Shown: positions 2,299-22,730 of the stretch, one piece after another | Position numbering within the stretch: the first letter of the stretch is position 1 | Layout of the letters: the number at the start of each line of letters is the position of its first letter | DNA from: Escherichia coli | GTDB lineage: Bacteria > Pseudomonadota > Gammaproteobacteria > Enterobacterales > Enterobacteriaceae | DNA: 64,000 nucleotides | Strand: one strand, 5' to 3' | NCBI RefSeq assembly: GCF_003334305.1 | Contig: NZ_QOWS01000003.1 | Made by a program: the position numbers and the translations under genes | The notes under the pieces: generated by a model | Seen by the model: the letters and a program-made list of their open reading frames with translations, nothing else | Database searches by the model: none | Told to the model about the DNA's origin: nothing

Positions 2299-2314
2299 CA
2301 TCGTATGCAAATCG

Positions 2315-5435: not shown

Positions 5436-5974
5436 ATCAACACCTCATAGTGAATTCTGTCCAAAACAATCATGTTCAGGTTTTTGATAAATAAAAAGCG
5501 ACTAAATACCACCTCAACATCAGGAGCGGCGATTACTTGGGTACCCGTGGACGAAGTAAAACCCATACGGCATATGTCTTTCAGTTTTTGAGTATCAGGT
5601 ACACCTACTAAGCCTTGGCTCCAGGCACTGAGGACCAGGGTTTTGGGGCAATGATTCCAGCGCTGTGCTGCTTCCAGTAAGTTTTTTAATTTTTCTTCCA
5701 GCTTTTGCTGCCCCTTCGCTGAACCATCAAAGCGTTCAAATTCGATTAAACACACAGGCGATGCAGAAGATTTATGAAACCAGCCCGAGTCAGAGCGAAT
5801 ATCAGCACCAAATGTCCCTGGAGCCGGGCATTCCACTACCGCCATAAATGACTGTTCATGCCCGAATGTATTCCAAACGCTACAGCCCAGGCTGTGGACC
5901 AATACATCCTGGTCCAATAGCTTACCGCTTGCTAAAAGTGGAAATGTCTCATTTACCCAGGCAACTTCAGGCAT
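5432..5974 (-). CDS. Hypothetical protein (about 180 aa), operon partner of the kinase
   Basis: ORF track 5432-6031; the first ATG is at 5974 (complement of 5972-5974), 7 nt after the HerA-like stop and preceded by AAGGTG. No recognisable motif. Confidence 0.7.
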   Translation of the reverse strand: MPEVAWVNETFPLLASGKLLDQDVLVHSLGCSVWNTFGHEQSFMAVVECPAPGTFGADIRSDSGWFHKSSASPVCLIEFERFDGSAKGQQKLEEKLKNLLEAAQRWNHCPKTLVLSAWSQGLVGVPDTQKLKDICRMGFTSSTGTQVIAAPDVEVVFSRFLFIKNLNMIVLDRIHYEVLM

Positions 5975-8816: not shown

Positions 8817-9665
8817 TTATAGCGTTCCTGTGTGTAGCTGCTCGCCAAGTAATGGGGCATAAGCCCAATATTGCGAGGCTTGTAGGCATGTTTTACCGGT
8901 AGCTGTTATGCCCGCGTCGTCGATAAAATCGTGCTGCCGCAACATCTCACCCCGCTTGACAATATCAAGGCTATTAACATCAAACATCAGCTTAACCGCA
9001 TTATGCTCAGACAACGCTTGTAAGTTCATGCCACCGCCAGCGTAGAGTAATAGCAATACAACTAGATCGTGCTTATCTGGCGTGTAGTCAGTTGATGGCG
9101 CTTTAGGTTCGATTATTCGTTCAGCAATGCCTGCATGGTCCACAAACCAATTCAACCAGCTCACCAGGAGCTCACTATGATCGAGTAAAGTCAGCGACCA
9201 CAAAGGTAACGTGGTAAAGGCTAATAGCCCACTGTTGCTGTGTTTTCGTATGTAGCGGGTATGCACTACATCACCGGCCTGGTGCTGGTAGCGATCTGCG
9301 CTGCCAGTAAAGCCAGCAATAGCCTGGTCTGTTTCACTGGCTAGCAAAGCGGTTAGCCCCGGTTCCTGCCCCCTCAAGCTCGCTGGTACTAACTGCCAAT
9401 CCAGTGGATAGGGCAATTGCGCTAATAAGGTAAATTGTTCTGCTTTCAGGTTTATTACCAAAGCGGCACAACCTGCCTGCATAGCCCAGTGATACAGGTG
9501 CTGCATAGTATTAGCGTCAGTCAACTCTTCTGCTTGCACTATTAACAAACCGCTGGCTGGCGGCGAGCTAATCCAATCCTTCATTAAGGGGGTAGCCCCC
9601 GCAACAGTTTGCAAAAAACGGCCTTTACGATTACTGGCCAGTGCCGCAGATAAATAACGACTCAT
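8817..9665 (-). CDS. Hypothetical protein (about 282 aa)
   Basis: ATG at 9665 (MSRYLSAAL...), 10 nt after the stop of the 1428-aa gene; the longer frame to 9692 needs a non-ATG start. No recognisable motif. Confidence 0.72.
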   Translation of the reverse strand: MSRYLSAALASNRKGRFLQTVAGATPLMKDWISSPPASGLLIVQAEELTDANTMQHLYHWAMQAGCAALVINLKAEQFTLLAQLPYPLDWQLVPASLRGQEPGLTALLASETDQAIAGFTGSADRYQHQAGDVVHTRYIRKHSNSGLLAFTTLPLWSLTLLDHSELLVSWLNWFVDHAGIAERIIEPKAPSTDYTPDKHDLVVLLLLYAGGGMNLQALSEHNAVKLMFDVNSLDIVKRGEMLRQHDFIDDAGITATGKTCLQASQYWAYAPLLGEQLHTGTL

Positions 9666-9675
9666 CGCGTCACCT

Positions 9676-12600
9676 CTACAAACCAGTGGCAAAGGTAAGG
9701 CGCATTTTTACAATGCCTTTGTCTACAAGTCCTTTCTGTTGCTCAGGTGTTAACACGGGTTCCTGATTTTGGCTCAAAGCCTTATAAATCGGTTGCCAAT
9801 CCGCCAGTGTTAAGCCTGTATCATTTAATATTTGCTCACCTTGACTCTGCCATTTGGCCTGGGTGCTTTCACACACCTGTTGAAGTTCTCTGACACCCAA
9901 ATTGCTCACATCCTCCAGAGTCAACGCTGCTGGTTCCGCTTGCTTTTGAGAAGCCAATAGCGGTTTTAATAACGGCAGCCAGCTGTTTACCTGTGCGATG
10001 GAGTTGCGTCTTACTTGGTTTAGACGCTCTTCAATTTTAAGTAGCTGGCCTTGAATCGGTGTAAGTTGACCGCGTGCCGGTTTTAAAAGCTCTTCTGGTA
10101 AATCCCGTAACGATGAAAACTGCCCATTGCGCAAACTGTTTTGCATACTTTGACGCTTGCTCTCTGCATCACTGGGGAGATCGGCAATAGCATCTTCAAT
10201 GAGCTGTAATTTCATTACCAGTTTTGGTAGCTCTGCAATGTCATCGGCGAACTGATACTCAGCCGTGGCGCTACTAAGCCATTCTTGCAGTTGTTGTGCA
10301 CGTAGTTTTTGCTCTGTGAGGTTATTAACCAGCTTACTAAATCGTTCTTTGCAGTTGCGGTAGCTGGACAAAATATGCCCCTGAATCTCCGCTATCGGCA
10401 ACTGTTGATCATTGTGCAGGTTTAAACCCACTTCTTGCGCTAAGGCTGAAAGCTTGTCATGCGCTCTACCTAAATCGAGTTTACGCAGGTAATGCAGTAA
10501 GGTATCGCTATCTGCTTGCTGCTCTTTTCGGCCAGTGGCACTGCTGGTATCGTCTTTTAACGCTCCATCTAAAATATGACCTATGGTGCGCAGCGTGTTG
10601 GTGTACAGACGTTTCGGAAAATTCGTCAGCGGGGCACACTCTGTTTCAACATCTATGATTAAATCAACGAGTCGGTTGTTGATACGCTCAGCGCTGCACT
10701 CAACAAACTCGGCAAATAAACAGGCCTGTTCAATCCGTTGATAAAGCGAGGTCGTTTTGTCTTCTAAGCTGAGAATATGGGCATCTTTTAGCATAGGCCT
10801 GGAACTATTAAGCGGTTTAACCTTTGCTACCAGCTCCAGCACTTCAGCGCGTTTGTGGATAAGCCCTGCCAATACTTTCGTGTCGTTGGCCTCGACCATA
10901 TCAGCCAATTGTTCTTCTTGCTGTTTGAGCACGTTAAATAGCGATTGTGCTTTTTCCAGCTGCTCTTTAGCTTCCACGGTGACGAAACCCAGCTTATTTT
11001 TACCCAGTGGCGCGAACATTTCATTAATGCGTGCATAACCATACACGCGGCTCATGACTTCCACATTGGCTGCATAGCTGCCCATATCGTTACCACGGAA
11101 CCAGTTTTGCGCTTCTCTAATGGCATTTTCTAAGCGGGAGCGCGGGTAGTGCTCCCAAATTGCCTGTTTTTCTGTTGGATTGGTTAAAGTGAGTAAGTTC
11201 AGCTCTCCACACCACCACATCCAGTCATTAAACACGCCTTTGGCGGTAACACTCGTTTCAGCCACATAGGCGAAATAAAACTGTTGCTTAAAGCCTTCGA
11301 ATTGCCACTTGTGCTTTTTATTAGGGTGAGCAATACGGGCTAAAAATAATGGGATCTGCGCCTGGCTTCGCTGCACATTATTAAGTTCAGTAAATAGCCC
11401 GGCATGTTCATCGGCAGTGTAACCTTTGGCAATATAGCTGCCCGGCACCTTAAGTTTATCCAACAAGCTGCTCAGCTCATTCACTGGCACGCCGTGTTGC
11501 TGCTGTAAATCGAGAATGCCATTTAACTCAGGGTGAGCAATGGCCAGCTGATACCAGCCTTTAAACAACAGGTCTCGGTCATTCGGTGATAATTTACCAT
11601 CTACCTTTAACGGCCAGGCAATTAAACCGCGCTGCTGCAAACGCTGGCGCCACTTGTGAATGGCATCCGTGGCAAAGGTTGTCAGGGCATGCAGCTTGTT
11701 TTTGAATTTCGCGGTAAAGCTGTCGGCAGTTAAATTCACGCCGTGCAACTGACATGCTGCCAAACTTAAGCCAATACGCTCTAACTGGTCTGCTTCGCTT
11801 GGGTTGACATAATGCAGCAGTATCGCATCACGCAACTCATTTCTTTCATCCAGTCGGCTGTATTGCTCCATGAGATGTGCAGAAGCAGTTAACGCTAATA
11901 CTGGCGTGCGACCATTTTGGTGGCTGTGGTTTGCCGCAAAGGTGTGAAGATTGTTCAGCTCAATTAGGTTGCTGACCCAGGCAAACAAGGCTTTACCTTC
12001 TGGGTGAAGCTTAAATCCATCCAGGGTAAGTAAACCACCCTGGCGGCCACGGGGCTCGGTTAAAATGGCCAAAGGTGCATCGTCGCTGCCCGCTTTATTA
12101 CTCAGCAAGTTTTCATCATAGGTCCAGTTGTTATCAAGTAATCTCACAAAGCCCGTTACACGGGCTAATGCCTTGATGAGCGGCTTCTGGCTACTTTGTT
12201 TGCTAAGTTCACTCATTGCCTGTTCATGAGCGTCGCCCATGGCGGGATCTTTAAAAATCAGTGAGTTTTGCTGGGCACTGCGATAGCGCAAATCCAGGCG
12301 CAGTAACATCGCCACACTGGGGCCAATATGCGTTGCTTCGCTGGCGTCCAGTTCGGTAGTTTCACCCACTAGCTTGTGCCATAAGGCATCGGCAGCGAAT
12401 TCAATCGCTGGGTGGTCATACAGCAAGCTGAGTAAGTATTTAAACTCACCTTTTGACAGAGGTAGTAATACCGCGCCTTTATCGCCGCTTGCGGCTTGTT
12501 CTTTAATTGAAAAAGTACGCAGGTTATCCAGCAAAGTATCTAAGTTCAGCGCTTGATCTACTGCAGGGTAGTACCATTCATCTTTATCGCGGCGGAATTT

Positions 12601-13962
12601 GGCTTGCTCCAGGGCTTGTCGGCACTGTAGGCGGTCAATGCTCAGTTTGCGGTAATGAGCGGCTATGGGTTCCAGATCTTCGTTTTTCAGCGCCAGCAAT
12701 TCTGTGGCATAGCCCATTTCAGCTAAGCGCACGGGTAATTGGCCGTAGAGCAAACTACGACATTCGGTCAATAGTGCCTGGTCGCGAGTTTGAATGCCTT
12801 CTATCGCGCCTTTATCCAGCACATGCCTGGCTACGCGGCCAGAGCCTGCCAGCACAGCTTCAAATAAATCGCCCACATCCTTGATACTGCGGCCTGCTTG
12901 TTGGTATTGGCTCAGCACTGCATCCACATTAGCCATGACCACGTTAAACCAACCGAAGTTGGCACCACTCATGGCGTATGCAGCTTCCACTAAACCAGCA
13001 GGGTAATTAAAACCCAGCTTGCCGTCTTTTAAGAGGCTTGCCACATAGTCTGATACATCGGCAAAGGCATTATGCTCAAGTTCCACTAACTCAAAGCGGC
13101 GTGCGACCGATTGAATTTCGCGCAATTGCTGGCCAAGCAGTGGTGAACACAGCGCTACATAGCGCAACCATGGAAGTTTACGGCGAGGGTCTTCCTCTTT
13201 AATTGCTTTACCAATCAGGCGAATGGCCTGGCCATCGAGGCGTTTATTTTGTTCATCTTCCAGGCCAAAGGTGGCGGCTTCTGCAACGGTTTCCAGCTCA
13301 TCCAGCACCACCAACATATACTGCACGCCAAAGCTCTTTAATACTTTATAGGCGGCTTGCACCAAACTGACTACCAGCGTTTGGTCAGTATAGAGGTCTT
13401 CTTCGCTGTGGTTGGCGTTCAGCTGTAAGGCATCTGCTAACAGTTCAGATTTAAAGCCAAATGGCATTAAGCGTTCATAGGCTTGTTTGGCAATTTCACT
13501 TTGAATCGATCCATCAAAGGTTTGGGTGGCCAGTGGTAATAGCGCCTGATATAAACCAAAAGCAAACCAGTTATCCGAGTTTTGATAATCTGATGCCACT
13601 TGCGAGTAGCGAATGTAGAGCGCCAGGTATTTGTCTTGCGTGTCGCGATTAAACAGCTGCTTATCGTGCAGTTGGCCTTGTTCGTCGCGGACAAACCAGC
13701 CCCTTGAACAGTCGTTAATTTGTGCAACCAATTCATGGCCTAAACGTGATTTACCCCGACCCCATTCGGCTTCGACGGCAAACACATGGGCAAAGCGATC
13801 ATCGTCGTGATCCACCGTATGCAAAAAGGTTTGAAAGCGTTTAAAAAAGCGGCTCTGGCCCACTAACGGGTCGCGAGGTGGATAATCTGATACGCCCGTC
13901 GCCGCCCAGCGATGTTGTTTTGCCAGGCTATCAACCATCTGTTCGTTTAATTCAAAACTCAT
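9676..13962 (-). CDS. Giant protein (1428 aa) with an N-terminal KAP-type P-loop NTPase domain and about 1200 aa of helical extension
   Basis: Walker A AEWGRGKSRL (the GxWGxGKS pattern of KAP NTPases) near residue 65 and Walker B MLVVLDELE about 150 residues later; the remainder is long and uninterrupted. ATGA overlap with the upstream gene. Confidence 0.85.
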   Translation of the reverse strand: MSFELNEQMVDSLAKQHRWAATGVSDYPPRDPLVGQSRFFKRFQTFLHTVDHDDDRFAHVFAVEAEWGRGKSRLGHELVAQINDCSRGWFVRDEQGQLHDKQLFNRDTQDKYLALYIRYSQVASDYQNSDNWFAFGLYQALLPLATQTFDGSIQSEIAKQAYERLMPFGFKSELLADALQLNANHSEEDLYTDQTLVVSLVQAAYKVLKSFGVQYMLVVLDELETVAEAATFGLEDEQNKRLDGQAIRLIGKAIKEEDPRRKLPWLRYVALCSPLLGQQLREIQSVARRFELVELEHNAFADVSDYVASLLKDGKLGFNYPAGLVEAAYAMSGANFGWFNVVMANVDAVLSQYQQAGRSIKDVGDLFEAVLAGSGRVARHVLDKGAIEGIQTRDQALLTECRSLLYGQLPVRLAEMGYATELLALKNEDLEPIAAHYRKLSIDRLQCRQALEQAKFRRDKDEWYYPAVDQALNLDTLLDNLRTFSIKEQAASGDKGAVLLPLSKGEFKYLLSLLYDHPAIEFAADALWHKLVGETTELDASEATHIGPSVAMLLRLDLRYRSAQQNSLIFKDPAMGDAHEQAMSELSKQSSQKPLIKALARVTGFVRLLDNNWTYDENLLSNKAGSDDAPLAILTEPRGRQGGLLTLDGFKLHPEGKALFAWVSNLIELNNLHTFAANHSHQNGRTPVLALTASAHLMEQYSRLDERNELRDAILLHYVNPSEADQLERIGLSLAACQLHGVNLTADSFTAKFKNKLHALTTFATDAIHKWRQRLQQRGLIAWPLKVDGKLSPNDRDLLFKGWYQLAIAHPELNGILDLQQQHGVPVNELSSLLDKLKVPGSYIAKGYTADEHAGLFTELNNVQRSQAQIPLFLARIAHPNKKHKWQFEGFKQQFYFAYVAETSVTAKGVFNDWMWWCGELNLLTLTNPTEKQAIWEHYPRSRLENAIREAQNWFRGNDMGSYAANVEVMSRVYGYARINEMFAPLGKNKLGFVTVEAKEQLEKAQSLFNVLKQQEEQLADMVEANDTKVLAGLIHKRAEVLELVAKVKPLNSSRPMLKDAHILSLEDKTTSLYQRIEQACLFAEFVECSAERINNRLVDLIIDVETECAPLTNFPKRLYTNTLRTIGHILDGALKDDTSSATGRKEQQADSDTLLHYLRKLDLGRAHDKLSALAQEVGLNLHNDQQLPIAEIQGHILSSYRNCKERFSKLVNNLTEQKLRAQQLQEWLSSATAEYQFADDIAELPKLVMKLQLIEDAIADLPSDAESKRQSMQNSLRNGQFSSLRDLPEELLKPARGQLTPIQGQLLKIEERLNQVRRNSIAQVNSWLPLLKPLLASQKQAEPAALTLEDVSNLGVRELQQVCESTQAKWQSQGEQILNDTGLTLADWQPIYKALSQNQEPVLTPEQQKGLVDKGIVKMRLTFATGL

Positions 13963-15260
13963 AACGACGATCCTTGAAGGTTTATTCTATTGGCGGCGCG
14001 TTTTTTATTGGCATAGCAGTTTTGCGCCAGTTGCTTAATGGTCCGTTGTAACGTTTGGCTTTTGTAGCCAAATAGTGGTGCTAACGGCAGGCTATAACAG
14101 GCATCGCTGAAGCTTGTATGAATTCGATATTGGCCGGCCTCTCCACGACCCGCCTCGGTAAATTGCCAGATTTTTTTTGCCAACAATTCGGCAATGAATG
14201 AGCTCAGGACGCGGTTTAGGCGGTTGATGCTTTCCGTGTTCGCATCGAGTGCCGGGTAGAGGGGTATATTGAGCTCACCGAGCAGAAGCACAAGAAACTC
14301 GGCCAAACTACCCAGACTCACCTCATCACCTTCAATGCCCTGTACCGCCACATTTATTTGACCGGGGGCAAAGGCATTTTGCCCGGCAGGTAAGGTGAGC
14401 AACAAACCGCCACGTTGCTCGGCAGCCCAGGCATCTTGCACAAAGATAATTAGACTGAGTAAAAATAACCAGGGCTGTTGGGCGAATAGCTCGGTAAGCG
14501 GCATGTTGTCATGACCCGAGCGGGACACCAATAACCAATCGGCATTGGGTTTAAGGTTATGTTCATCAAGCAAGGTATTAGGGAGTGCTAACAACCGCCC
14601 ACTACACCAGTTATTTGTCAGTTGTTTTGCGGTGACATCCACCGCTTGTATAGGTGCCGGTGGTTCATTTTGTTCGCTCACGGTAAACAAGGTATAGCTG
14701 GTGCGCAAAATACGACATAGCGCGGGAATGGCAGCATTGTCGTTTAGGCTATGACCGAGCAAATCGCGTTCGGTTTGTGCCAGAGGGCCGGCAATGATTT
14801 GCGGCGTGGTGGCAGTGCTTTCCAGCTGGGCTAAGACCCATTCACTGGCATTGCCCAGTTGCTGAATGAGTTTAACCAATACCATTGTGTCACTCATCGT
14901 GCCTGCTTCCTGGCAGCGAGCGGCGGCTAAATTGATCCAATGTTGGCGAACATCTGGGTTTAAGCCCAACAACGCTAATTGCCATTCACCTGACTGGCTT
15001 AAATCGTTAAAGGCATCAAGCAATGGTGCAGTGAGGCTAAAGGCGCTAACGATATCCGTTTCAGCGTCGTTCTTTTTCGGCTGTATTATTGGTTGTAGCA
15101 GTGACCTAAGGGCAGGCACAGCCGCCAATAACAATGCTGCTTTGTTGGCGTTCAAACCACCTTGTTGCCAAAGCTGCAGGCAGAGGTTAAGTGCCGCTTC
15201 GCTATTTACGGGGTCGTTATATTGCCTGGTTGTACTGCTGTCCGTGCCCCTTGTCTCCAT
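13959..15260 (-). CDS. Hypothetical protein (433 aa)
   Basis: Complete ORF starting METRGTDSS; 2-nt gap to the upstream HsdS-like gene and 4-nt overlap with the downstream gene. No recognisable motif. Confidence 0.78.
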   Translation of the reverse strand: METRGTDSSTTRQYNDPVNSEAALNLCLQLWQQGGLNANKAALLLAAVPALRSLLQPIIQPKKNDAETDIVSAFSLTAPLLDAFNDLSQSGEWQLALLGLNPDVRQHWINLAAARCQEAGTMSDTMVLVKLIQQLGNASEWVLAQLESTATTPQIIAGPLAQTERDLLGHSLNDNAAIPALCRILRTSYTLFTVSEQNEPPAPIQAVDVTAKQLTNNWCSGRLLALPNTLLDEHNLKPNADWLLVSRSGHDNMPLTELFAQQPWLFLLSLIIFVQDAWAAEQRGGLLLTLPAGQNAFAPGQINVAVQGIEGDEVSLGSLAEFLVLLLGELNIPLYPALDANTESINRLNRVLSSFIAELLAKKIWQFTEAGRGEAGQYRIHTSFSDACYSLPLAPLFGYKSQTLQRTIKQLAQNCYANKKRAANRINLQGSSL

Positions 15261-15262
15261 CT

Positions 15263-16741
15263 TTACTCTTCAGCCTCCGCTTGCGCCGCCTCTTCCAGCA
15301 AACTGTATAACTCATCCACATCGCTAAATAGCGGTGTGGCACCTTCAATGGCATAACCCTCAGCGCTCAGTTTGCTTAAAATCGCTTGATCAAAGCTGCT
15401 GTCGCCATCTTCCAGGGCTTGTTGGGCCTGGATTAGTTGTTGCTCAGTCAGTTGGCCTTCGATTAATGACTCAACTAGAGTTTTGGCAGATGCTGTTAAC
15501 TTTTTTGCATATGCTGCCGTAGTAACGGCTAGTCTCAGCTTACTTCCTATTTCTCTATTCTTCGCTATGTCAATCGGAATCAGAATATTTAACAGGTTTT
15601 CTGAAGTCACTTTTGGTACAACGCTGCCAGTAGTCACACCTTTCCAACACGGAAAGTGTTTATCCAGGAACCTACAAATAGACTCAATATCATATTCATC
15701 TTTTACCTTTAAAACCCAAACATGGTTGTTTGCCCAAAACTTTCCATCAGCTACATTTGCACAGCCAATAGAGCCATCTTGCGCAATAATCAGATATTTA
15801 CCGTTGAAATTGAATTCGGTATGAGTATCTATTGGACCTGATGCGCCATAGTAAAAATATGGTCCGGGTACTCTGTCTTCCGATTTAATAGGGTCGCCAC
15901 ATTTGCATTTACTAATGAAATTAGATAGTTTTGATGAATTCCTAAAGGTCATTTGACTATCGGCCGCACGTGCAAACTCAGGAGCTAAAGACACTGCTGA
16001 TAATACCTGTTGTTTCATTCTTCTAGGTTTCAATGTTAATGAATCAACAAGGTTGAAGTGAAATAAATCTTTAATTTTTCTATCAGCCATTCCTTCAAGT
16101 CGTTTCGCCCAAGCGCGTAACTGCTCGGCTTGGCGAACTTTATCCCCGATGTATTTTTGGGCTAGAGGTAAAACTTTAGGAACCGCTAGCGAGCGGACAC
16201 TTGGGAAGTCAATTGCAGGGCGAGTTGCGCCATATGCTTCCTTCCAGATCGCTACTTGTCCGGTTTTGCTATTCAAATATGCCACCAAGAAATAGGCGTC
16301 AACTTTTTTGGGATCGGGCTTGAATCTGACTGAGTGCTGACTAATGTTGGCCGGTAGATGTTTAGCTGACACAACAGCCGATTTACCAAATTTTGCACCA
16401 GTAATCGTAAGTAAAACGTCGCCATCCACTAATCGGCTGCGCTTTAATTTTTCATCATCTTCATCGTTAATAAAAACAGCTTCTTCAGCTTGCAAGAACA
16501 TTTCTTCAACTTCAGAAGTGCGATAAAACTTAACACGGCCTTTTTCTAAATAATTTGCTCCTAAAGGTGTTGCGCCACTAGCCACCCCGCGCTTTGAATC
16601 AATTACCGCTTCTAGGGGCAAAGCACCTAGGTTGTCTTTTATCTTATTAATTTGTCTTTCAAATCGCGGTTGATAGTGCCAAGGATCAATCCGCCTTTCA
16701 GACAATTGTTCGGGTGTTCTTTTAAAAATAGTTGCCATCAC
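15263..16741 (-). CDS. Type I restriction-modification specificity subunit-like protein (HsdS-like, two target-recognition domains)
   Basis: Two repeated TRD-end segments (GATRPAIDFPSVRSLAVPKVLPLAQ and GVTTGSVVPKVTSENLLNILIPIDIAKNREIG) plus a helical C-terminus, resembling HsdS. Start is GTG at 16741 or ATG at 16738, overlapping the methyltransferase stop. Confidence 0.75.
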   Translation of the reverse strand: MMATIFKRTPEQLSERRIDPWHYQPRFERQINKIKDNLGALPLEAVIDSKRGVASGATPLGANYLEKGRVKFYRTSEVEEMFLQAEEAVFINDEDDEKLKRSRLVDGDVLLTITGAKFGKSAVVSAKHLPANISQHSVRFKPDPKKVDAYFLVAYLNSKTGQVAIWKEAYGATRPAIDFPSVRSLAVPKVLPLAQKYIGDKVRQAEQLRAWAKRLEGMADRKIKDLFHFNLVDSLTLKPRRMKQQVLSAVSLAPEFARAADSQMTFRNSSKLSNFISKCKCGDPIKSEDRVPGPYFYYGASGPIDTHTEFNFNGKYLIIAQDGSIGCANVADGKFWANNHVWVLKVKDEYDIESICRFLDKHFPCWKGVTTGSVVPKVTSENLLNILIPIDIAKNREIGSKLRLAVTTAAYAKKLTASAKTLVESLIEGQLTEQQLIQAQQALEDGDSSFDQAILSKLSAEGYAIEGATPLFSDVDELYSLLEEAAQAEAEE

Positions 16742-18885
16742 TCACCCCGCTTATAAGCCGATACAATCTTATCCAGATCGTTTGCGACACCGGCGTTATA
16801 GTCTTCGATATTGTTTTTCACCACATAACCCAATGTTTCAGCCACTGCCATAAACACGTCGGTTTGTGGCTCGGGCAAAAATTGCTCTGGCTGGTTGGGG
16901 TTAGCATGGCGTTTTTGTAAATACAAAATCGAGGTTTTGGCCCCCGTACCGGAGAGTTTAAAGCAGTCGCTCGGCAATGAAATTACTGCTTTTACAATAG
17001 CTTTACCGCCAACAAACTCGCCGGTTTTTTCGTCTTTTTTCCCCATAATGTACTCACGGACATAACGGTCGCCGGAGTTACATAAAATACCATCAGGCAG
17101 CACTATTAACAGGCGGCCACCGGGTTTAAGCAGTTGCAGGCAGCGGTCGATAAAAAGTACTGCTGGGTCAATAGTGGCACCTACCGGTTGCCAGTTGCCC
17201 TTGCTATCGGGCTTGCTGCCCAGCGCGAGCCCTGCGGTTGTAGGCTGCAGGCTGTAAAACGGCTTTTTATCAGTCCCGCCCGTTCTGCGCAAATCGGTAC
17301 GGTAGCCCGCCCATTTAGGCTCGCCGTTTTCATCCAGCTCTAAATCACCGATATCCTGCCACTTCATTTTCACGTGGTCATACCAGGCGTTGTAGCTATC
17401 AACGACTTTTTTGGTCGGACGAAAACCACCGAGCACTTGCTCCATATTGGCTTCGTAATTGGCTTTTGAGTTTTGACCATTTTTGCCTTTATCAAATTTA
17501 GGCGTACCGAACGGCGGGTTGGTGCAAATCAGGTCAAAGCTATTCGGCTTCAGAGCGTTAGTAGTGAGTGAGTTGTCGGTATAAAAAATCTGCGCTTTGG
17601 GGGCACCTTGCAATGCCATATTCACGCGGGCCAGCATTACCATGCGTGGTGCAGCATCGGCACCGGTAAATGCACAGTCGCGTAATTTTTGTTTCAATGA
17701 TTCTTTTTTATCGTCGGCCAGCACCAGCTTAAAATCGATCCATTTATCAATCTGGCTTAACGCCACCGAGCCAAAACCAAAGGAGCCACAGGTGGGGTCG
17801 CAGAAACGAAAATCGCCATTGGCTAAGCGCGATCGCATTTCATCGTCATCGTCGATGTCGTGCATAGCAATTTCTAGCATGGCCTGTTTTACTGGGTTTG
17901 GTGTTAAATAAACGCCAAGGCCACCTTTGGATTCAAAGTTAGCGCGTAGGAATACATCAAACACTCTGCCTAGTAAATCTCCTGACACATCAGCCAACGT
18001 GCCGTGTTCTTTCGCGATTTTACCGTCGTTGGTTTTTACCGGACCCAGGTTTTGTATTGCTTCCAGCAAATCCTGATAGTTTTTCGCAACAGACAGTCGC
18101 AGGTGTGTTTCTTTACTAAAGATGGGGTTACGTGAGCCATCATCTGAGATCACAACGTAGTTTTCGTGGCTTTTAAATTCCTCAAAGGCGGCTTTGATTT
18201 GGGCAACGGCTTTATCGCCGTGGCTCTCCACATATTGCCAATCAAAGACATCACGAAAACGCAGGGTATTTCCCTCATCATCTTTAAAGGTAAGGTCTTC
18301 ATCGTGATGCAGGCGGAAAGTTTCTAAAAACAGAAGCTTAGCTACTTCTTCAATAATGTCGTTCTTGTCGTTTACCTTGTCTTTGGTAACGCGATAAACA
18401 TTTTCATGGAAGGCATCAAATCGCTGCATTAAGCGTGTATAAACACGCATCGACCAGCGAAAGGTTGGATCACGCTCCATGCGATCAAAGCTACGTAATT
18501 CTTCCAGACCAGGCAGGGTATCTGCACCGTGGGTACCGTCAGATCCATCGGCACCGAACAAGGCCAAAATACGTTGGTTCAAGCCATCGTCCACAACGGC
18601 ATATACTGGCCAGTCACCTTCGATATCACTTAACAGCTGATAGGCTAAATCATCAAACTTTGCAGTGTCAGCGGCGTATTCCCAATGGCCTTCTGTCAGC
18701 GCAATCAACATGACTGGTGGCGTTAAGTTGCCTTCAACCAGGCCTTGAATGAGACCAGCCTTGGCGAATTCATGCTCGGGTAATTCGACCAATGGCTGAG
18801 TAAACTCGGAGTGCTGTTTGACCAGTTTATTGAACAGTGCTTCTAGCTGCTGTTGCGGGTCTTGTTTTTTTGCTTCTTTTGCCAT
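16738..18885 (-). CDS. N6-adenine DNA methyltransferase (HsdM-like) with an extra N-terminal region of about 350 aa
   Basis: 715 aa; AdoMet motif I-like DPTCGSFGFG and catalytic motif IV NPPFG; the domain order resembles the type I M subunit. Confidence 0.85.
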   Translation of the reverse strand: MAKEAKKQDPQQQLEALFNKLVKQHSEFTQPLVELPEHEFAKAGLIQGLVEGNLTPPVMLIALTEGHWEYAADTAKFDDLAYQLLSDIEGDWPVYAVVDDGLNQRILALFGADGSDGTHGADTLPGLEELRSFDRMERDPTFRWSMRVYTRLMQRFDAFHENVYRVTKDKVNDKNDIIEEVAKLLFLETFRLHHDEDLTFKDDEGNTLRFRDVFDWQYVESHGDKAVAQIKAAFEEFKSHENYVVISDDGSRNPIFSKETHLRLSVAKNYQDLLEAIQNLGPVKTNDGKIAKEHGTLADVSGDLLGRVFDVFLRANFESKGGLGVYLTPNPVKQAMLEIAMHDIDDDDEMRSRLANGDFRFCDPTCGSFGFGSVALSQIDKWIDFKLVLADDKKESLKQKLRDCAFTGADAAPRMVMLARVNMALQGAPKAQIFYTDNSLTTNALKPNSFDLICTNPPFGTPKFDKGKNGQNSKANYEANMEQVLGGFRPTKKVVDSYNAWYDHVKMKWQDIGDLELDENGEPKWAGYRTDLRRTGGTDKKPFYSLQPTTAGLALGSKPDSKGNWQPVGATIDPAVLFIDRCLQLLKPGGRLLIVLPDGILCNSGDRYVREYIMGKKDEKTGEFVGGKAIVKAVISLPSDCFKLSGTGAKTSILYLQKRHANPNQPEQFLPEPQTDVFMAVAETLGYVVKNNIEDYNAGVANDLDKIVSAYKRGE

Positions 18886-18935
18886 GATGTTTTCTAAAAT
18901 CCTTTAATACAGCCAATGGTTACTACAAATGCCGG

Positions 18936-19322
18936 CTAATTTATCAGTACCAGCAAGGGGCCTTTAATCTCTATCTGCGCGTGCTTCTGTGCCAGTTTGC
19001 GTATCTGCTGTTCACTGGTCGTAATACCAGCAGGGAGCTTTTTCAGTACTTGTGCAAGGGGCATGCGCCCACCAGCTTGATGCAACAATGATACCAAATG
19101 TGCCGCGATATCAGGTATAACCTGGTACGTTGCCGTTGTGGGCCCTTTTAGATGATTACTTTGAGGCAATGAGGCAAGCCATAGCGAAACTTGAGACTGG
19201 CTAAAGCCAAGTGTTTGCCAGAGGGTTTGGTTCTCATTAAATACAACGGCGGCGCTTCTGGGAGTTGCTGTTTGCTGAGTTATTAGTTGTTCCAGGCTTT
19301 GTCGCTGGTATTCATGGGTCAT
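18936..19322 (-). CDS. Small hypothetical protein (128 aa), possibly helix-turn-helix
   Basis: ATGA overlap with the McrC-like gene stop; a 50-nt gap precedes the methyltransferase gene. The segment TLWQTLGFSQSQVSLWLAS loosely resembles an XRE-type HTH (weak). Confidence 0.65.
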   Translation of the reverse strand: MTHEYQRQSLEQLITQQTATPRSAAVVFNENQTLWQTLGFSQSQVSLWLASLPQSNHLKGPTTATYQVIPDIAAHLVSLLHQAGGRMPLAQVLKKLPAGITTSEQQIRKLAQKHAQIEIKGPLLVLIN

Positions 19323-20662
19323 CTCATGCCTCCACTATAGGATACTGAAGCAGCCATCCGATCCAGTTTGGGGCTCATTGTACAGGACACGTCATTCGGC
19401 CACATCATCCTCTCACCGCGTTTTGCCATTATCCGGTATGGCACAACCCATAATTTTAAAGTCTCCGAGAAAGCAAAATGCTGCGCTATAGGTTGGCTAA
19501 AGTCATCATGCGCAGGGTAAATCAGATACATTTCGCCATTCCCACCAAGATATTTTTGTCCGTAGGCAAACATTTGATAGAAGTCAGCTTGTGCCAGTCC
19601 ATAGAGTGATTTTGTCTGCTGGCTGCTATTCACCAGCTTCCATTTTGTATCCATCACCATTTCGGTTTGAACTGGTTTGTGTGATTGAATCAGCAAGTCG
19701 GGGCGAAGCTTAAAGCAATCTTTAAGTCCATGCTTTACCAAAGAATAAGTTGCTGCTTGAGGTAAAACTTTGAGGTGAGGTGGTAACTCGTCGGGTAGGG
19801 TCTGTGCCACAAAGGATTCAAATACCGCTTCCATAGGGAACAAAAGTGATATCGCTTTGGTGTTTCCCTGCAAAGCACTCGGGCTCATTCCCCTCAGGAT
19901 CAATTGCGCCCATGCCATTGGCTCGTTGTAATGAGCCATACCACGCTCGAGGCGTAAGTTGTTTATATCACGTTCAATATCCCGGCTAAGTGGAATACCG
20001 TCAAACGCAAAACGCAGTTCGTAAAGCCAGCGTTGATTATCTGATGACAGCTGCAGACTAAGAAGCTTATCTAGTGCGGAGTGTAAGAGCCGATTGGCTG
20101 CACAATCAGGCATGTAGTCATCATAATCGACACAAAACTTATGGCGATTCACCGCGTTATGTCGCAGCTGTGCAGAAAGCATCAGCTTGCCCTTCATAAA
20201 AGCCAGATTACCTTGCTTGCTCACATAGTCGGAGCGTAAACCCTGTTTAAGCAATTGGCTGACGCTATGCAAAAACTGGTTAATAAAAATCTCAAGCAAA
20301 GGCATACGCTGAGCCTGAAGAGTGGCTTGCTGGGTTTGAATATGTCGGAACCCAGGCAGATGGCTTAGCATCGTCAGCAATGTTTGACGTGCATTAGCCG
20401 CTGTGAGGTTTTTACCAACCTTGGGCAGTATCTCAAGCTGGAAACCGTGAGGTGTTGAAAGCATCCCTGCGTAGTTTTGAACCTGAAGCAATTTGAAGCC
20501 TGAGCGAGAGGTGAGTTTGAGGAACTGGCTCCCTTGATTACTTGCCAGGCTAAGCGCTTCTAAATAATTAAAGACCTGTGGAGGCACCGGTTTTGCGCCA
20601 ACTGAAGCCGCTTTTCCACTCCCCAAGAGGTCATATTCAAAAACGGAGATAACTTCACCCAT
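19319..20662 (-). CDS. McrC-like PD-(D/E)xK nuclease
   Basis: 447 aa; RPDLLI ... MDTKWK arrangement typical of the McrC catalytic core; overlaps the upstream McrB-like gene by 8 nt, as in mcrBC. Confidence 0.8.
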   Translation of the reverse strand: MGEVISVFEYDLLGSGKAASVGAKPVPPQVFNYLEALSLASNQGSQFLKLTSRSGFKLLQVQNYAGMLSTPHGFQLEILPKVGKNLTAANARQTLLTMLSHLPGFRHIQTQQATLQAQRMPLLEIFINQFLHSVSQLLKQGLRSDYVSKQGNLAFMKGKLMLSAQLRHNAVNRHKFCVDYDDYMPDCAANRLLHSALDKLLSLQLSSDNQRWLYELRFAFDGIPLSRDIERDINNLRLERGMAHYNEPMAWAQLILRGMSPSALQGNTKAISLLFPMEAVFESFVAQTLPDELPPHLKVLPQAATYSLVKHGLKDCFKLRPDLLIQSHKPVQTEMVMDTKWKLVNSSQQTKSLYGLAQADFYQMFAYGQKYLGGNGEMYLIYPAHDDFSQPIAQHFAFSETLKLWVVPYRIMAKRGERMMWPNDVSCTMSPKLDRMAASVSYSGGMR

Positions 20663-22730
20663 GATTTACTGCCTGCTCATCAAGGGGAGTCTGTTGGGGC
20701 TGATAAATTGAACGATAAGCCTGTGGAATATTCCAGATCTCTTGATCGAAATCTTTGAGCTCATAAGCTGTTGATTGCTGATCATGGCGTCGTAAACCAT
20801 GGTTGTTACCAAAAAGCGTATCGAGATCGTCGGTTTTCTCAATCACGAATTGCAGGTTGTCGTCTTGCTTTTGATTGTCTGCCAGCACCAACCGGATCTT
20901 GTTCCAGTCATCGAAAAAGTATTCCTGTAAAAGCGGAATGATCTTTTTCTGGAATGCGATCTTCAATTGTTTAAACGCAGCTTCTTCATCACCGGCATCG
21001 AGTGCATTTTTTACCGGCATAAAGAACGCATGCCCCAGCGTATGTTCACGATCGTAAAGAGCCTCGATGCGGCTATTGAGTTTCTCTAACAACGACTCGA
21101 GCTCTATGCCTTTCACCTTAGCTTCACTCAGTAAAGAGAGATCAGGCATCATTTCGACAAAGTCAAAGCGACGGCGCAAAGCCGTGTCCATCAGAGCTAA
21201 AGAACGGTCCGCTGTATTCATGGCTCCGATGATATCGACATTGCCGGGTACGCTGAAGTGATCACCGCTATAAGCCAGTTGCAGGCTCATCGCATTGGGC
21301 ATGCCTGCACGCTTGTCTACTTCAATGAGTGAGATTAGTTCACCAAAGATCTTGGATATGTTACCGCGATTGATCTCATCAATGAAAATGGCGTAGCGAT
21401 GTCCTGGATCGGCATTCGCACGTTGGCAAAGGCGCATAAAGATACCCGGCTCAATGGGATAAGAGATATTGCCACTCTCGTCAGAGCGAGCGCGTATACC
21501 TTCAATAAATTCTTCATAGCCGTAAGATTGGTGGAACGTAACCACCGCAAAACGCTGGATGGCTTCGGCAGATTTAGGGCCACGTTTAAGTTCGGCGTAG
21601 AGCTCTACCAAATCCTCCACTTGCTCGAGCTGTGAATCAACTAGAAACCATTCGCTGTTATCTGTTTTGTTAAATACGGCAGGCTCACGCCGATTCTTAT
21701 AATCAACGGTTAACGACTCGGGAACTGTATAGGATTGCAAAGCTGCCCAGGCAGTATTCGATAGATTGCCATTACGACCGTTTAATAATGCCTTACGTTG
21801 AAACCACATATGTTCAATAATTTGGCGAACTTTCGCTCGTTTCCCAAGATCGAGCAGCACCAGCGTTATAACCTGCATCCAGTTCAACGATTCAAGGCGA
21901 GAATCCAGCCAGGCATCACGATCAGCGGGAACAGCATGAGAAGTGTACTCTTTCATTTTTTGCTGCAACCTGAAGGTCTTGCCAGTGCCAGGGGGGCCAA
22001 AGAAGATCACGTTAGTTGGTGAATGTAGGATGATCTTGTTCTCGATGGGCTCACTGCGGGTTATGGATGTAGTGCTAGCTACTTTCTCCTGCTTTTGTTC
22101 ATTATCGCGTTCACGGAGCAATTCATAGAGATGCCAGATGGCCATATTCACATAATAAGGATCTGTATCAGGAGATTGGGCGTGTATGGCTTGTTTCAAT
22201 TCATAGTTTTTCTGTAACCAATTTCCGGTCAGTACCAAACCGAGATGGAAGTGCTGATTTAAGAATTCTGCTGCTTTATTAAAAGCATTCTCATCCACAG
22301 TACTGGTGTAGTTTTCTGGCGAGAACGCGGCAAAGACGCGATTTCTCAAACTCCAATACATACGCTTGAGAAGTCCGTTTTCTTTAGCTTGTTGAAGTGC
22401 ATTGCCAACATATTGGTAAGTTTCTTCATCCGGCTGTTGCCGAATTCGTTCAGTTAGTTCTCTAAGCAGTGGCAGGCTTTGCTGATATTCTGCTAAGGAT
22501 GGAACGCCCTGGCGAATACTTGCAATGCCGTTGTCACGCTCATACCAAAGCTGTTTGACCAGACCATCTGTTGCAGGCTCAGCAAAAGTTGAGGTTTGCT
22601 GTAGCAAAGTCGTAAATGCACGGTATCGCTGATACCATCTGGAAGCTGTGTAATTTTTATCTTTCGCCAGGGCATCAATCAATTCACTAATCGTTAGCCT
22701 ACCTGCTTCGACACTATCTACAAGAGTCAT
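20655..22730 (-). CDS. McrB-like AAA+ NTPase with a distinct N-terminal domain of about 230 aa
   Basis: 691 aa; Walker A GPPGTGKTF, Walker B FIDEINRGN and the McrB-type ALRRRFDF motif. First gene of the operon; GAGGAA ribosome-binding site 8 nt upstream of the ATG. Confidence 0.85.
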   Translation of the reverse strand: MTLVDSVEAGRLTISELIDALAKDKNYTASRWYQRYRAFTTLLQQTSTFAEPATDGLVKQLWYERDNGIASIRQGVPSLAEYQQSLPLLRELTERIRQQPDEETYQYVGNALQQAKENGLLKRMYWSLRNRVFAAFSPENYTSTVDENAFNKAAEFLNQHFHLGLVLTGNWLQKNYELKQAIHAQSPDTDPYYVNMAIWHLYELLRERDNEQKQEKVASTTSITRSEPIENKIILHSPTNVIFFGPPGTGKTFRLQQKMKEYTSHAVPADRDAWLDSRLESLNWMQVITLVLLDLGKRAKVRQIIEHMWFQRKALLNGRNGNLSNTAWAALQSYTVPESLTVDYKNRREPAVFNKTDNSEWFLVDSQLEQVEDLVELYAELKRGPKSAEAIQRFAVVTFHQSYGYEEFIEGIRARSDESGNISYPIEPGIFMRLCQRANADPGHRYAIFIDEINRGNISKIFGELISLIEVDKRAGMPNAMSLQLAYSGDHFSVPGNVDIIGAMNTADRSLALMDTALRRRFDFVEMMPDLSLLSEAKVKGIELESLLEKLNSRIEALYDREHTLGHAFFMPVKNALDAGDEEAAFKQLKIAFQKKIIPLLQEYFFDDWNKIRLVLADNQKQDDNLQFVIEKTDDLDTLFGNNHGLRRHDQQSTAYELKDFDQEIWNIPQAYRSIYQPQQTPLDEQAVNHG

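What the first reader, a model, noticed from the sequence alone, without database searches (positions are those of the whole stretch)
15263..22730. Hybrid RM-like module: type I-like methyltransferase and specificity subunit paired with a McrBC-like NTPase-nuclease and no HsdR
McrB-like AAA+ protein (20655-22730), McrC-like PD-(D/E)xK nuclease (19319-20662), a small protein (18936-19322), an HsdM-like N6-adenine methyltransferase with a long N-terminal extension (16738-18885) and an HsdS-like protein with two target-recognition domains (15263-16741) are co-transcribed. No SF2 HsdR motor is present. If these act together the architecture resembles LlaJI or BsuMI (methyltransferase-protected restriction by a McrBC-type machine) but with type I-style M and S components, which is unusual. 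Alternatively the methyltransferase and S subunit provide the self-mark for the downstream seven-gene module, as PglX does in BREX.
Basis: partly seen in the sequence, partly recalled or inferred. Interest (0 to 1): 0.8.

Follow-up and report, generated by a model that had tools for sequence, protein, structure and literature searches.

The report
McrBC cassette fused to MADS-like operon
The methyltransferase and specificity genes are not partners of the McrBC-like pair: they belong to a conserved, untested ten-gene "MADS-like" defence operon with its own HerA-NurA nuclease machine, and in enterobacteria a portable McrBC restriction cassette has been spliced onto its front.

Summary
The genes are real and sit at the stated coordinates, with intact McrB GTPase, McrC PD-DxK, N6-MTase and two-TRD HsdS motifs.

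The "hybrid RM" reading is not supported.

- **Core operon.** Across 77 loci from at least 8 phyla, p128-MTase-HsdS-p433-p1428 (P-loop)-p282-p385-HerA-p180-Ser/Thr kinase is one colinear operon. It matches the 11-gene "MADS-like" system named in the MADS preprint.
- **McrBC is separate.** It accompanies this operon only in Enterobacterales, plus one unrelated McrBC in a Fibrobacter MAG. The same cassette, at 89-95% nucleotide identity, sits beside a type I, a type IIG and a type IIS RM system elsewhere. It is in 983 of 5426 complete E. coli genomes, against 265 with the junction seen here.
- **The junction.** Homology breaks 65 nt before the mcrC stop. The insertion replaced the operon's usual small HTH or WYL regulator and left mcrC overlapping p128 (ATGA).

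Best reading: a type IV cassette and a MADS-like system in one superoperon, acting in parallel.

The parts
20655..22730 (-). McrB-family GTPase, 691 aa. Helical N-domain at residues 1-217. AAA+ core with a roughly 120-aa winged-helix-like insertion at residues 272-393. First gene of the portable McrBC cassette.
19319..20662 (-). McrC-family PD-(D/E)xK nuclease, 447 aa. It is 428 aa in other contexts. The last ~22 codons are context-specific.
   Evidence: Pfam PF10117. Aligned to TgMcrC 6ut5_G with PD...DxK intact. C-terminal tails compared. dN/dS 0.09-0.16.
19322..19387 (-). Recombination junction. Cassette homology to other McrBC contexts ends at about 19387. mcrC reads on through the p128 leader (GGAGG Shine-Dalgarno) and its TGA overlaps the p128 ATG (ATGA).
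   Evidence: blastn breakpoints. Sequence. Leader alignment. Junction present in 265 E. coli genomes.
18936..19322 (-). p128, a small helical protein. It is the first universal gene of the MADS-like core (position of madl2).
   Evidence: tblastn and jackhmmer find homologues directly upstream of the MTase across phyla. Alignment A4.
16738..18885 (-). N6-adenine DNA methyltransferase, 715 aa, gamma-class, MAD2-related. Predicted writer of the self-mark.
   Evidence: PADLOC MTase_I PDLC03023 at 1577 bits end to end. NCBIfam best hit MADS2 at 111.6 bits, below the 720-bit cut-off. Motifs I and IV conserved in 28 loci.
15263..16741 (-). HsdS-type specificity subunit with two swappable TRDs and a conserved ~70-aa C-terminal tail.
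   Evidence: PADLOC Specificity_I, NCBIfam MADS5 at 90 bits. TRDs differ between E. coli strains while the flanking genes stay above 94% identical.
13959..15260 (-). p433, a conserved core protein with no detectable family.
   Evidence: Syntenic in the loci outside Firmicutes and Chloroflexi. No Pfam, PDB, PADLOC or NCBIfam hits.
9676..13962 (-). p1428, a large P-loop NTPase (GRGKS Walker A, VVLDELE Walker B). It occupies the position of the madl6 ATPase.
   Evidence: Alignment A1 has an invariant N-terminal ~350 aa. Only a marginal KAP_NTPase hit, E 0.24. Used as the anchor that retrieved 77 loci.
8817..9665 (-). p282, a conserved core protein of unknown family.
   Evidence: Syntenic. No family hits.
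7657..8814 (-). p385, a NurA-fold (RNase H-like) nuclease. Predicted partner of HerA; its 3' end overlaps herA by 11 nt.
5982..7667 (-). HerA-family hexameric translocase ATPase (HAS-barrel plus DUF87). 60-99% identical across phyla.
   Evidence: PADLOC HerA, NCBIfam HerA, Pfam DUF87. Identities.
5432..5974 (-). p180, a conserved core protein of unknown family.
   Evidence: Syntenic. No significant hits.
3966..5435 (-). Ser/Thr protein kinase with a helical, TPR-like C-terminal half. MAD6-related. Last gene of the operon.
   Evidence: PADLOC mad6 at 1.2e-45, NCBIfam MADS6 at 117 bits, below cut-off. VAVK, HGDIKPxN, DFG and APE motifs conserved.
2214..3764 (+). tRNA-Leu(CAA) plus a frameshifted tyrosine integrase. 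This is the insertion site of the island that carries the operon.
   Evidence: ARAGORN. RefSeq annotation of strain A7.

Best explanation
The 18.8-kb minus-strand array (22730 to 3966) is two defence systems joined into one superoperon.

**(1) The MADS-like core.** This is a ten-gene operon: p128, N6-adenine MTase, HsdS, p433, a 1428-aa P-loop NTPase, p282, a NurA-fold nuclease (p385), HerA, p180 and a Ser/Thr kinase.
- By analogy with type I RM and with experimentally studied MADS, an M-S complex writes m6A on a bipartite motif set by the two TRDs and so marks host DNA.
- DNA carrying unmethylated motifs is sensed, probably by M-S together with the large NTPase and the small core proteins.
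- That DNA is then attacked by the HerA-NurA translocase-nuclease, with the kinase acting as a regulatory or signalling component.
- HerA-NurA takes the place of HsdR.

**(2) The McrBC cassette.** This is a portable McrBC-family type IV cassette: a GTPase with a helical N-domain and a winged-helix insertion, plus a PD-DxK nuclease. It most likely acts on its own against DNA carrying some non-host modification.

**How they were joined.** In an enterobacterial ancestor the cassette recombined in directly upstream of p128. It replaced the small HTH or WYL regulator found in other lineages and left mcrC translationally coupled to p128.

**Shown versus inferred.** Shown: gene content, motif integrity, synteny, cassette portability, the junction and the NurA fold. 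Inferred: methylation, the restriction mechanism, co-transcription and the McrBC target.
For: - **Synteny.** The 9 genes from MTase to kinase are colinear in essentially all full-length loci among the 77 retrieved (Proteobacteria, Cyanobacteria, Planctomycetes, Acidobacteria, Verrucomicrobia, Fibrobacter, Firmicutes, Chloroflexi). p128 homologues sit upstream of the MTase throughout.
- **McrB is rare here.** It is found in only 3 of 61 complete loci with flanks.
- **Portability.** Cassette nt 22761-19387 is 89-95% identical to copies beside type IIG plus Eco57I-like, type I hsdMSR, and Eco31I-type IIS systems.
- **E. coli counts.** Cassette in 983 genomes, core in 207-268, junction in 265.
- **Mosaicism in Rosenbergiella.** McrBC is 81% nt identical but p128-MTase is 90%.
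- **Normal operon head.** Other lineages carry HTH_17, WYL or a second HsdS-like gene there.
- **Family affinity.** Best curated family hits are MADS MAD2, MAD5 and MAD6, plus PADLOC mad8.
- **Match to the published description.** The gene-by-gene description of the 11-gene 'MADS-like' system fits.
- **Precedent.** MADS uses m6A at TCAGN4TCC to discriminate self from non-self.
- **Signs of function.** Catalytic motifs are conserved and TRDs are swapped between strains. McrBC dN/dS is about 0.1-0.15 in all contexts.
- **Literature.** McrBC is known to associate with type I RM and with DNA methyltransferases in same-direction gene arrays that could form single operons (Bell et al. 2024, PMC11090510).
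Against: - No experiment exists for this system or for MADS-like in any host. Methylation, restriction and complex composition all rest on analogy.
- All hits to MADS families are far below the curated cut-offs, and MAD1, MAD3, MAD4 and MAD7 have no counterpart. Mechanistic transfer from MADS is therefore loose.
- Every E. coli copy of the core carries McrBC at the same junction. mcrC overlaps p128 and the usual regulator is gone. A functional or regulatory dependence acquired after the fusion cannot be excluded.
- The NurA catalytic residues were not mapped.
- The McrB N-domain has no significant structural match, so modification dependence is unproven.
Confidence: 0.7

Rival explanations
1. 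This is the first reader's hybrid: McrB-McrC is the restriction arm of the M-S pair, as in LlaJI or BsuMI. It cleaves DNA that lacks the M-S methyl mark, and the downstream seven genes are a separate system.
For: - The genes are tightly packed and mcrC is translationally coupled to p128.
- No HsdR is present in the window.
- McrBC-methyltransferase associations are common in several McrB clades.
- The McrB-like protein lacks the extra N-terminal domain seen in many relatives and carries a winged-helix insertion that could read sequence rather than modification.
Against: - M-S is never separated from the downstream genes in 77 loci. It occurs without any McrBC in about 58 of 61 complete loci.
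- The same McrBC cassette occurs with unrelated RM partners. One is a complete type I system with its own HsdR, and another includes a C5-methyltransferase.
- The recombination breakpoint lies inside the mcrC 3' end.
- The core has its own NurA-HerA nuclease.
Confidence: 0.08
2. After the fusion, McrBC became an integrated second layer of the MADS-like system in Enterobacterales. It would be co-regulated from one promoter and functionally complementary, for example killing hypermodified phages that are invisible to a methylation-based sensor. Physical coupling through the new McrC tail or p128 is possible.
For: - The native HTH or WYL regulator has been replaced by McrBC, and the ATGA overlap couples the two.
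- The junction is fixed in all 265 E. coli carriers and in Erwinia, Ewingella and Pantoea.
- A different McrBC pair lies 38 nt downstream of the kinase in a Fibrobacter MAG.
- The Maestri preprint introduction cites synergy between BREX and a co-resident type IV system.
Against: - The fixed junction can be explained by single-origin inheritance of one island.
- Adjacency of defence systems is common and is not enriched here (3 of 61 loci).
- There is no evidence of physical interaction.
Confidence: 0.17
3. The array is a decaying remnant. The MADS-like operon lost its regulator on insertion of McrBC and is no longer functional.
For: The island's integrase is frameshifted and the neighbouring nanS and HNH genes are fragments. 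Some E. coli genomes carry truncated cores (hits H37 and H38).
Against: - All 12 ORFs are intact in more than 200 genomes.
- Catalytic motifs are intact.
- McrBC is under purifying selection.
- HsdS TRDs have been exchanged between strains, as expected for a system under selection for new specificities.
Confidence: 0.05

Closest known systems
'MADS-like' 11-gene system (madl1-11) of Pseudomonas aeruginosa defence islands (Maestri et al. preprint, 10.1101/2023.03.30.534895, Supplementary Notes)
   Same: - Same order and content as described there: regulator, small protein, N6-MTase, S subunit, hypothetical, ATPase, two hypotheticals, HerA/DptH-like translocase, hypothetical, kinase.
- The P. 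veronii and Methylobacter relatives found here have exactly 11 genes, with an HTH_17 or WYL gene at the head.
   Different: - In the window the head regulator is replaced by a McrB-McrC pair, giving 12 genes.
- No direct sequence comparison with the P. aeruginosa madl genes was possible.
- The preprint gave no prediction for the protein shown here to be NurA-fold.
- The system has never been tested experimentally.
MADS (mad1-8), Pseudomonas aeruginosa SMC4386
   Same: - A methylation-associated multi-gene defence with an N6-MTase, an HsdS-type subunit, a Ser/Thr kinase and a HerA-type ATPase.
- m6A at a bipartite motif marks self.
- It provides the best curated family hits for the window's M, S and kinase.
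   Different: - Scores are far below family cut-offs: 112 against 720, 90 against 400, and 117 against 460 bits.
- There is no counterpart of MAD1, MAD3 (AbiEii/Toprim), MAD4 (DUF4276) or MAD7 (DptG-like).
- The window instead has p128, p433, the p1428 NTPase, p282, the NurA-fold p385 and p180.
McrBC type IV restriction (E. coli K-12 EcoKMcrBC; T. gammatolerans McrBC)
   Same: - GTPase AAA+ with the NxxD signature, and a McrC DUF2357 plus PD-DxK nuclease.
- Overlapping gene pair.
- Lies next to RM systems in an integrase-associated variable region, as mcrBC-hsdSMR does in the K-12 immigration control region.
   Different: - The N-terminal domain is unrelated to the K-12 (DUF3578-type) or Tg (YTH-like) readers and has no significant structural match.
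- A ~120-aa winged-helix-like domain is inserted after Walker A.
- The target modification is unknown.
LlaJI / BsuMI (McrBC-like R subunits with cognate methyltransferases)
   Same: McrB- and McrC-like genes lie in the same operon as DNA methyltransferase genes.
   Different: - From established knowledge, those systems use m5C methyltransferases and the R genes are dedicated partners.
- Here the MTase is an N6-adenine enzyme with an HsdS subunit, and the McrBC cassette is promiscuous in its neighbours.
HerA-NurA translocase-nuclease complexes (archaeal and Deinococcus end resection; TdpAB)
   Different: Here the pair is embedded in a methyltransferase/kinase defence operon. Sequence similarity of p385 to NurA is undetectable. 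Complex formation was not tested.
Type I restriction-modification
   Same: A gamma-class N6-MTase with an HsdS that has two TRDs and conserved spacer repeats. TRDs are shuffled between strains.
   Different: No HsdR SF2 motor. The MTase lacks HsdM_N and has a different N-terminal extension plus an internal insertion. The genes are always embedded in the ten-gene cassette.

Membership tests
Type I RM | HsdM-type N6-adenine methyltransferase | tested here: met
   N6_Mtase Pfam domain with motifs I and IV conserved. PADLOC MTase_I at 1577 bits. No HsdM_N domain.
Type I RM | HsdS with two target-recognition domains | tested here: met
   Methylase_S and Specificity_I hits. The alignment shows two variable TRDs and conserved repeats.
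Type I RM | HsdR SF2 translocase-nuclease encoded with M and S | tested here: not met
   No HsdR in the operon, in the 64-kb window, or in any of the related loci searched.
McrBC type IV restriction | McrB AAA+ GTPase with Walker A/B and the NxxD signature | tested here: met
   GPPGTGKT, DEINRGN, MNTADRS and RRRF aligned to 6ut3 and 6hz4.
McrBC type IV restriction | McrC with a PD-(D/E)xK nuclease, encoded immediately downstream | tested here: met
   PF10117. PD...DxK aligned to TgMcrC. 8-nt overlap with mcrB.
McrBC type IV restriction | Cleaves only modified DNA | not testable with these tools
   The N-domain has no recognisable reader fold. Biochemistry is needed.
McrBC type IV restriction | Genetically autonomous, not tied to one methyltransferase | tested here: met
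   The same cassette sits beside four unrelated systems. 983 E. coli genomes carry the cassette against 265 with the junction.
LlaJI/BsuMI-type (MTase-protected McrBC-like restriction) | The McrBC-like R genes consistently co-occur with their cognate methyltransferase | tested here: not met
   M-S occurs without McrBC in about 58 of 61 complete loci. The cassette occurs without this M-S in roughly 730 E. coli genomes.
MADS (mad1-8) | MAD6 kinase, MAD7 (DptG-like) and MAD8 (HerA-like), which the authors' detection model treats as mandatory | tested here: not met
   Kinase and HerA give sub-threshold mad6 and mad8 hits. No MAD7-like protein is present; p385 has no PADLOC or NCBIfam hit and is NurA-fold.
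MADS (mad1-8) | MAD2 methyltransferase and MAD5 S subunit at family level | tested here: not met
   NCBIfam MADS2 at 111.6 bits against a 720-bit cut-off. MADS5 at 90 bits against a 400-bit cut-off.
MADS (mad1-8) | MAD3 (AbiEii/Toprim) and MAD4 (DUF4276) | tested here: not met
   No such hits for any gene.
MADS-like (madl1-11) | Gene order regulator-x-MTase-S-x-ATPase-x-x-HerA-like-x-kinase | tested here: met
   The order is identical from p128 to the kinase in the window and in 60 or more loci. It was compared with the description. The head regulator is replaced by McrBC in the window.
MADS-like (madl1-11) | Sequence homology to the P. aeruginosa madl proteins | not tested
The nearest Pseudomonas relative examined was P. 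veronii.
BREX | PglX methyltransferase with PglZ phosphatase, BrxC ATPase and BrxL/other core genes | tested here: not met
   The only BREX-related hit is a weak PglW-kinase similarity. No PglZ, BrxC or PglX hits.
HerA-NurA | NurA-fold nuclease encoded next to a HerA ATPase | tested here: met
HerA-NurA | Conserved NurA catalytic residues and complex formation | tested here: inconclusive
   D87, D101, D107, D146, E277 and H290 are nearly or fully invariant in alignment A2. They were not mapped onto the NurA active site, and the complex was not modelled.

The most novel reading that the evidence does not exclude
In Enterobacterales the McrBC pair is no longer a free-standing type IV enzyme. It has been wired into the MADS-like system.

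It displaced the operon's own regulator and is translationally coupled to the first core gene. Its new McrC tail, or the winged-helix insertion in McrB, would let it work with M-S, p128 or the large NTPase. It would then act as a second, GTP-driven nuclease arm against DNA flagged as non-self. That would make it a McrBC machine directed by a type I-style specificity subunit.
Probability: 0.1. Interest if true: 0.75.

Novelty: new variant of a known kind. Interest (0 to 1): 0.45.

Why it matters
The apparent "type I M-S plus McrBC without HsdR" puzzle resolves into two recognisable modules. That removes a false lead.

It also highlights something useful. A phylum-spanning MADS-like system that has never been tested is present in about 4-5% of complete E. 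coli genomes, including LY180, which could make it convenient to test.

Identifying a NurA-fold nuclease paired with an unusually conserved HerA gives a concrete effector hypothesis for how MADS-type systems destroy unmethylated DNA. The literature read here lists that mechanism as unknown.

The McrBC cassette has four different RM neighbours and a breakpoint inside mcrC. It is a clean example of modular exchange of restriction cargo next to a conserved type IV anchor.

Tried and rejected
- **Sequence searches on the uncharacterised core proteins.** Pfam, PDB, PADLOC and NCBIfam searches of p433, p282, p180, p128 and p1428 returned nothing, or only a marginal KAP_NTPase hit at E 0.24.
- **Promoter and terminator scan of the operon.** No signal above the shuffled expectation, so it says nothing about transcript structure.
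- **Search for att direct repeats.** I looked between the tRNA-Leu region and the right end of the island. Only chance 9-11-mers turned up, so the island's right boundary is undefined.
- **Literature.** Searches for 'MADS-like', for McrBC+HerA+kinase, and for the RefSeq protein accessions returned nothing. The published Cell Host & Microbe MADS paper is not held, so I used the preprint. The Johnson et al. hotspot preprint does not describe the system.
- **Is the conserved ~465-aa upstream gene in other loci a divergent McrC?** Rejected. jackhmmer does not link them, and the gene is a degenerate HsdS-like protein.
- **Does the Fibrobacter McrBC show repeated recruitment of the same cassette?** Rejected. 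Only the AAA+ part is similar (45%) and its N-terminal region differs.
- **Pfam on relatives with an extra N-terminal domain.** No reader family was identified.

Full report
**Where the window comes from.** The window is Escherichia coli chromosome, 100% identical over 20 kb to strain A7 and others. The finding lies in an island inserted at tRNA-Leu(CAA), window 2214-2298, next to a frameshifted integrase. It is bounded on the other side by nanS remnants, then nanM, nanC and fimB.

**The gene array.** Twelve tightly packed minus-strand genes run from 22730 to 3966:
- McrB-like, 691 aa
- McrC-like, 447 aa
- p128
- N6-MTase, 715 aa
- HsdS, 492 aa
- p433
- p1428
- p282
- p385
- HerA, 561 aa
- p180
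- Ser/Thr kinase, 489 aa

Neighbouring genes overlap by 4-11 nt or are separated by 2-50 nt. A promoter and terminator scan found nothing above chance inside the array. A single operon is plausible but inferred.

**Observation check.**
- McrB-like has AAA_5 plus McrB_lid. It aligns to solved McrB structures with Walker A, Walker B, the NxxD signature (MNTADRS) and the arginine finger intact. A ~120-aa insertion sits between Walker A and the next core element.
- McrC-like aligns to T. gammatolerans McrC with PD...DxK intact.
- The MTase has motif I (DPxCGSxGFG) and motif IV (TNPPF), conserved in 28 phylum-spanning homologues. It has a long N-terminal extension and no HsdM_N domain.
- HsdS has the classical two variable TRDs plus conserved central and C-terminal repeats.
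- No HsdR exists in the operon or the window. The K-12 immigration-control slot between yjiS and yjiA, which lies inside the window, holds a penicillin G acylase gene instead of hsdRMS, mcrBC and mrr.

**What M and S belong to.** PADLOC and NCBIfam gave MADS families as the best curated matches for the MTase (MAD2), S (MAD5) and kinase (MAD6), plus PADLOC mad8 for HerA. All were far below family cut-offs.

I used the 1428-aa P-loop protein as an anchor (alignment A1). A scan of one genome per species returned 77 loci from Gamma-, Beta-, Alpha- and Deltaproteobacteria, Cyanobacteria, Planctomycetes, Acidobacteria, Verrucomicrobia, Fibrobacter, Firmicutes and Chloroflexi.

A tblastn matrix shows MTase-HsdS-p433-p1428-p282-p385-HerA-p180-kinase in the same order in essentially every full-length locus. 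jackhmmer shows that the small gene upstream of the MTase is a p128 homologue throughout (alignment A4).

The MADS preprint describes an 11-gene 'MADS-like' system in P. aeruginosa islands. Its content is a regulator, a small protein, an N6-MTase, an S subunit, a hypothetical, an ATPase, two hypotheticals, a HerA/DptH-like translocase, a hypothetical and a kinase. The loci here match that description gene for gene. One example is P. veronii: HTH_17, then a p128-like gene, then M, S and the rest through the kinase. M and S are therefore integral parts of this conserved cassette, not free type I genes.

HerA-NurA complexes are translocase-nuclease machines (PMC9960219, listed). The missing HsdR is thus functionally replaced by a HerA-NurA pair.

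The kinase keeps VAVK, HGDIKPxN, DFG and APE motifs across phyla. HsdS TRDs differ between E. coli strains, and between close relatives whose flanking genes are 87-97% identical. That is the signature of an active, diversifying specificity subunit.

**What the McrBC pair is.** Among 61 complete related loci with flanks, an HMM built from diverse McrB proteins finds McrB in only three. Two are Enterobacterales. The third is a Fibrobacter MAG, where a different McrBC pair lies downstream of the kinase; it is 45% identical in the AAA+ part only and has a different N-terminus. The close relatives in Vibrio, Pseudoalteromonas and Rheinheimera (p1428 84-87% identical) lack it.

Conversely, the window's cassette (nt 22761-19387) recurs at 89-95% nucleotide identity in other settings:
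- next to a type IIG MmeI-like enzyme plus an Eco57I-like MTase in E. coli
- next to a complete type I hsdM-hsdS-hsdR in Klebsiella
- next to an Alw26I/Eco31I-type IIS system with an A-MTase and a C5-MTase in E. coli R4

The shared layout is integrase, then variable RM-type cargo, then mcrC and mcrB (seen for the window, L082 and L086/087). The integrases are only 67-72% identical, so the cassette is better conserved than the island backbone.

In complete E. coli genomes the cassette is present at 80% coverage or more in 983 of 5426. The MADS-like core is present in 207 (268 with any match). The junction segment is present in 265.

McrB and McrC are under purifying selection in all contexts, with dN/dS 0.09-0.16. 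Bell et al. 2024 already report three relevant points:
- McrBC of the K-12 branch is frequently arranged in the same direction as type I RM genes, potentially as a single operon.
- Other McrB branches associate with DNA methyltransferases.
- GTPase-domain insertions probably encode specificity domains.

**The junction.** Homology to the other contexts stops at about 19387, which is 65 nt before the mcrC stop. McrC is 428 aa elsewhere but 447 aa here. Its new tail runs through the p128 leader, including the GGAGG Shine-Dalgarno, and its TGA overlaps the p128 ATG.

In relatives without McrBC, the sequence upstream of p128 encodes one of three things:
- a small excisionase-type HTH (HTH_17)
- a WYL regulator
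- in 28 loci, a second, degenerate HsdS-like protein

The enterobacterial lineage therefore swapped the operon's own head gene for McrBC. In Rosenbergiella the McrBC part is 81% identical but the p128-MTase part is 90% identical, which shows further mosaic exchange at this boundary.

**McrB domains.** The first ~200 residues form a module conserved in a large McrB subfamily: 153 clusters at 50% identity, with E up to 1e-3. In many relatives this module is preceded by an additional N-terminal domain that the window protein lacks. Pfam did not identify that extra domain.

**Mechanism proposed.** This part is inferred.
- The M-S complex writes m6A on a bipartite motif. That follows type I RM and MADS, where m6A at TCAGN4TCC marks self and unmethylated plasmids are restricted 100-fold.
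- Unmethylated motifs on incoming DNA are sensed by the core proteins: M-S, the large P-loop NTPase, p128, p433, p282 and p180.
- HerA-NurA then degrades the DNA.
- The kinase regulates or signals.
- McrBC acts in parallel as a GTP-dependent type IV nuclease on DNA with some foreign modification. It is expressed from the same upstream promoter because of the fusion.

I put this two-systems-in-one-superoperon reading at about 0.7. An acquired functional integration of McrBC is about 0.17, a true LlaJI-like hybrid about 0.08, and a decayed remnant about 0.05.

**Novelty and interest.** Both modules belong to known kinds. McrBC cassettes next to RM and MTase genes are documented, and the MADS-like architecture has been named.

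What is new here:
- the demonstration that the E. coli M-S pair belongs to that architecture
- its very wide phyletic spread with strict synteny
- the NurA-fold assignment for one of its 'hypothetical' proteins
- the precise McrBC fusion junction that displaced the regulator

The system is experimentally untouched and sits in ordinary E. coli strains, including LY180, so it is readily testable. Interest is moderate at 0.45. The finding as framed, a hybrid RM, is mostly explained away.

Noticed in passing
window 22900-23772 (-): Immediately upstream of mcrB lies a separate SBD-HNH gene. It matches the NCBIfam 'phosphorothioated DNA-binding restriction endonuclease' family at 437 bits against a 180-bit cut-off (Pfam DNA-SBD_ScoMcrA plus HNH_2). 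This is a third, modification-dependent nuclease in the same island. It may be related to the PT-dependent enzyme EcoWI, but I did not verify that.
   Followed up: partly
window 5982-7667 (-), and HerA genes of L005-L081: HerA of this system is 60-99% identical between E. coli and Firmicutes, Chloroflexi, Cyanobacteria and Planctomycetes. Its operon partners are only 25-45% identical. This is an unusually strong constraint on one component, and it is unexplained.
   Followed up: no
L021:2753-4252, L037:2350-3753, L070:2595-3878 and about 25 further loci: In 28 related loci the gene upstream of the p128 homologue is a second, highly diverged HsdS-like protein of about 430-500 aa. It is often translationally coupled to p128. 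Many MADS-like operons therefore carry two S-like subunits.
   Followed up: partly
L055:19933-23462 (Fibrobacter MAG): A different McrB (746 aa, with a PDC-S02-like domain at residues 245-361) and McrC (430 aa) pair starts 38 nt after the kinase gene of a MADS-like operon. That places it at the opposite end from the E. coli arrangement.
   Followed up: partly
window ~59567-62107 (+), between yjiS and yjiA: The chromosomal slot that in E. coli K-12 holds the immigration control region (hsdRMS, mcrBC, mrr) carries a penicillin G acylase gene here and no restriction genes (coordinates converted from strain A7).
   Followed up: no
window 15263-15480 (-), C-terminus of HsdS: HsdS ends in a ~70-aa acidic tail (QLIQAQQALEDGD...EEAAQAEAEE). 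It is nearly invariant among the three enterobacterial copies compared (two E. coli strains and Rosenbergiella), even where both TRDs are replaced. It may be a docking element for other core proteins.
   Followed up: no
window 20655-22730 (-); relatives P0244-P0390: Many relatives of this McrB carry an extra N-terminal domain of about 140 to over 500 aa in front of the conserved helical module. Its consensus is LLxWNP...GDxVYLxRxG, and Pfam does not recognise it. The window protein lacks it. About half of the 21 relatives compared also lack the winged-helix insertion.
   Followed up: partly
window 2500-3764 (+) and 23872-24600: The island backbone looks eroded. The integrase is frameshifted, an HNH endonuclease fragment and a truncated sialate O-acetylesterase (nanS) flank the right end, and no att direct repeat could be found.
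   Followed up: partly
L082:13535-13747, L085: In the type IIG context of the same McrBC cassette, a 70-aa HsdM_N fragment lies directly after mcrC. This suggests that a type I system once occupied that slot and was replaced.
   Followed up: no
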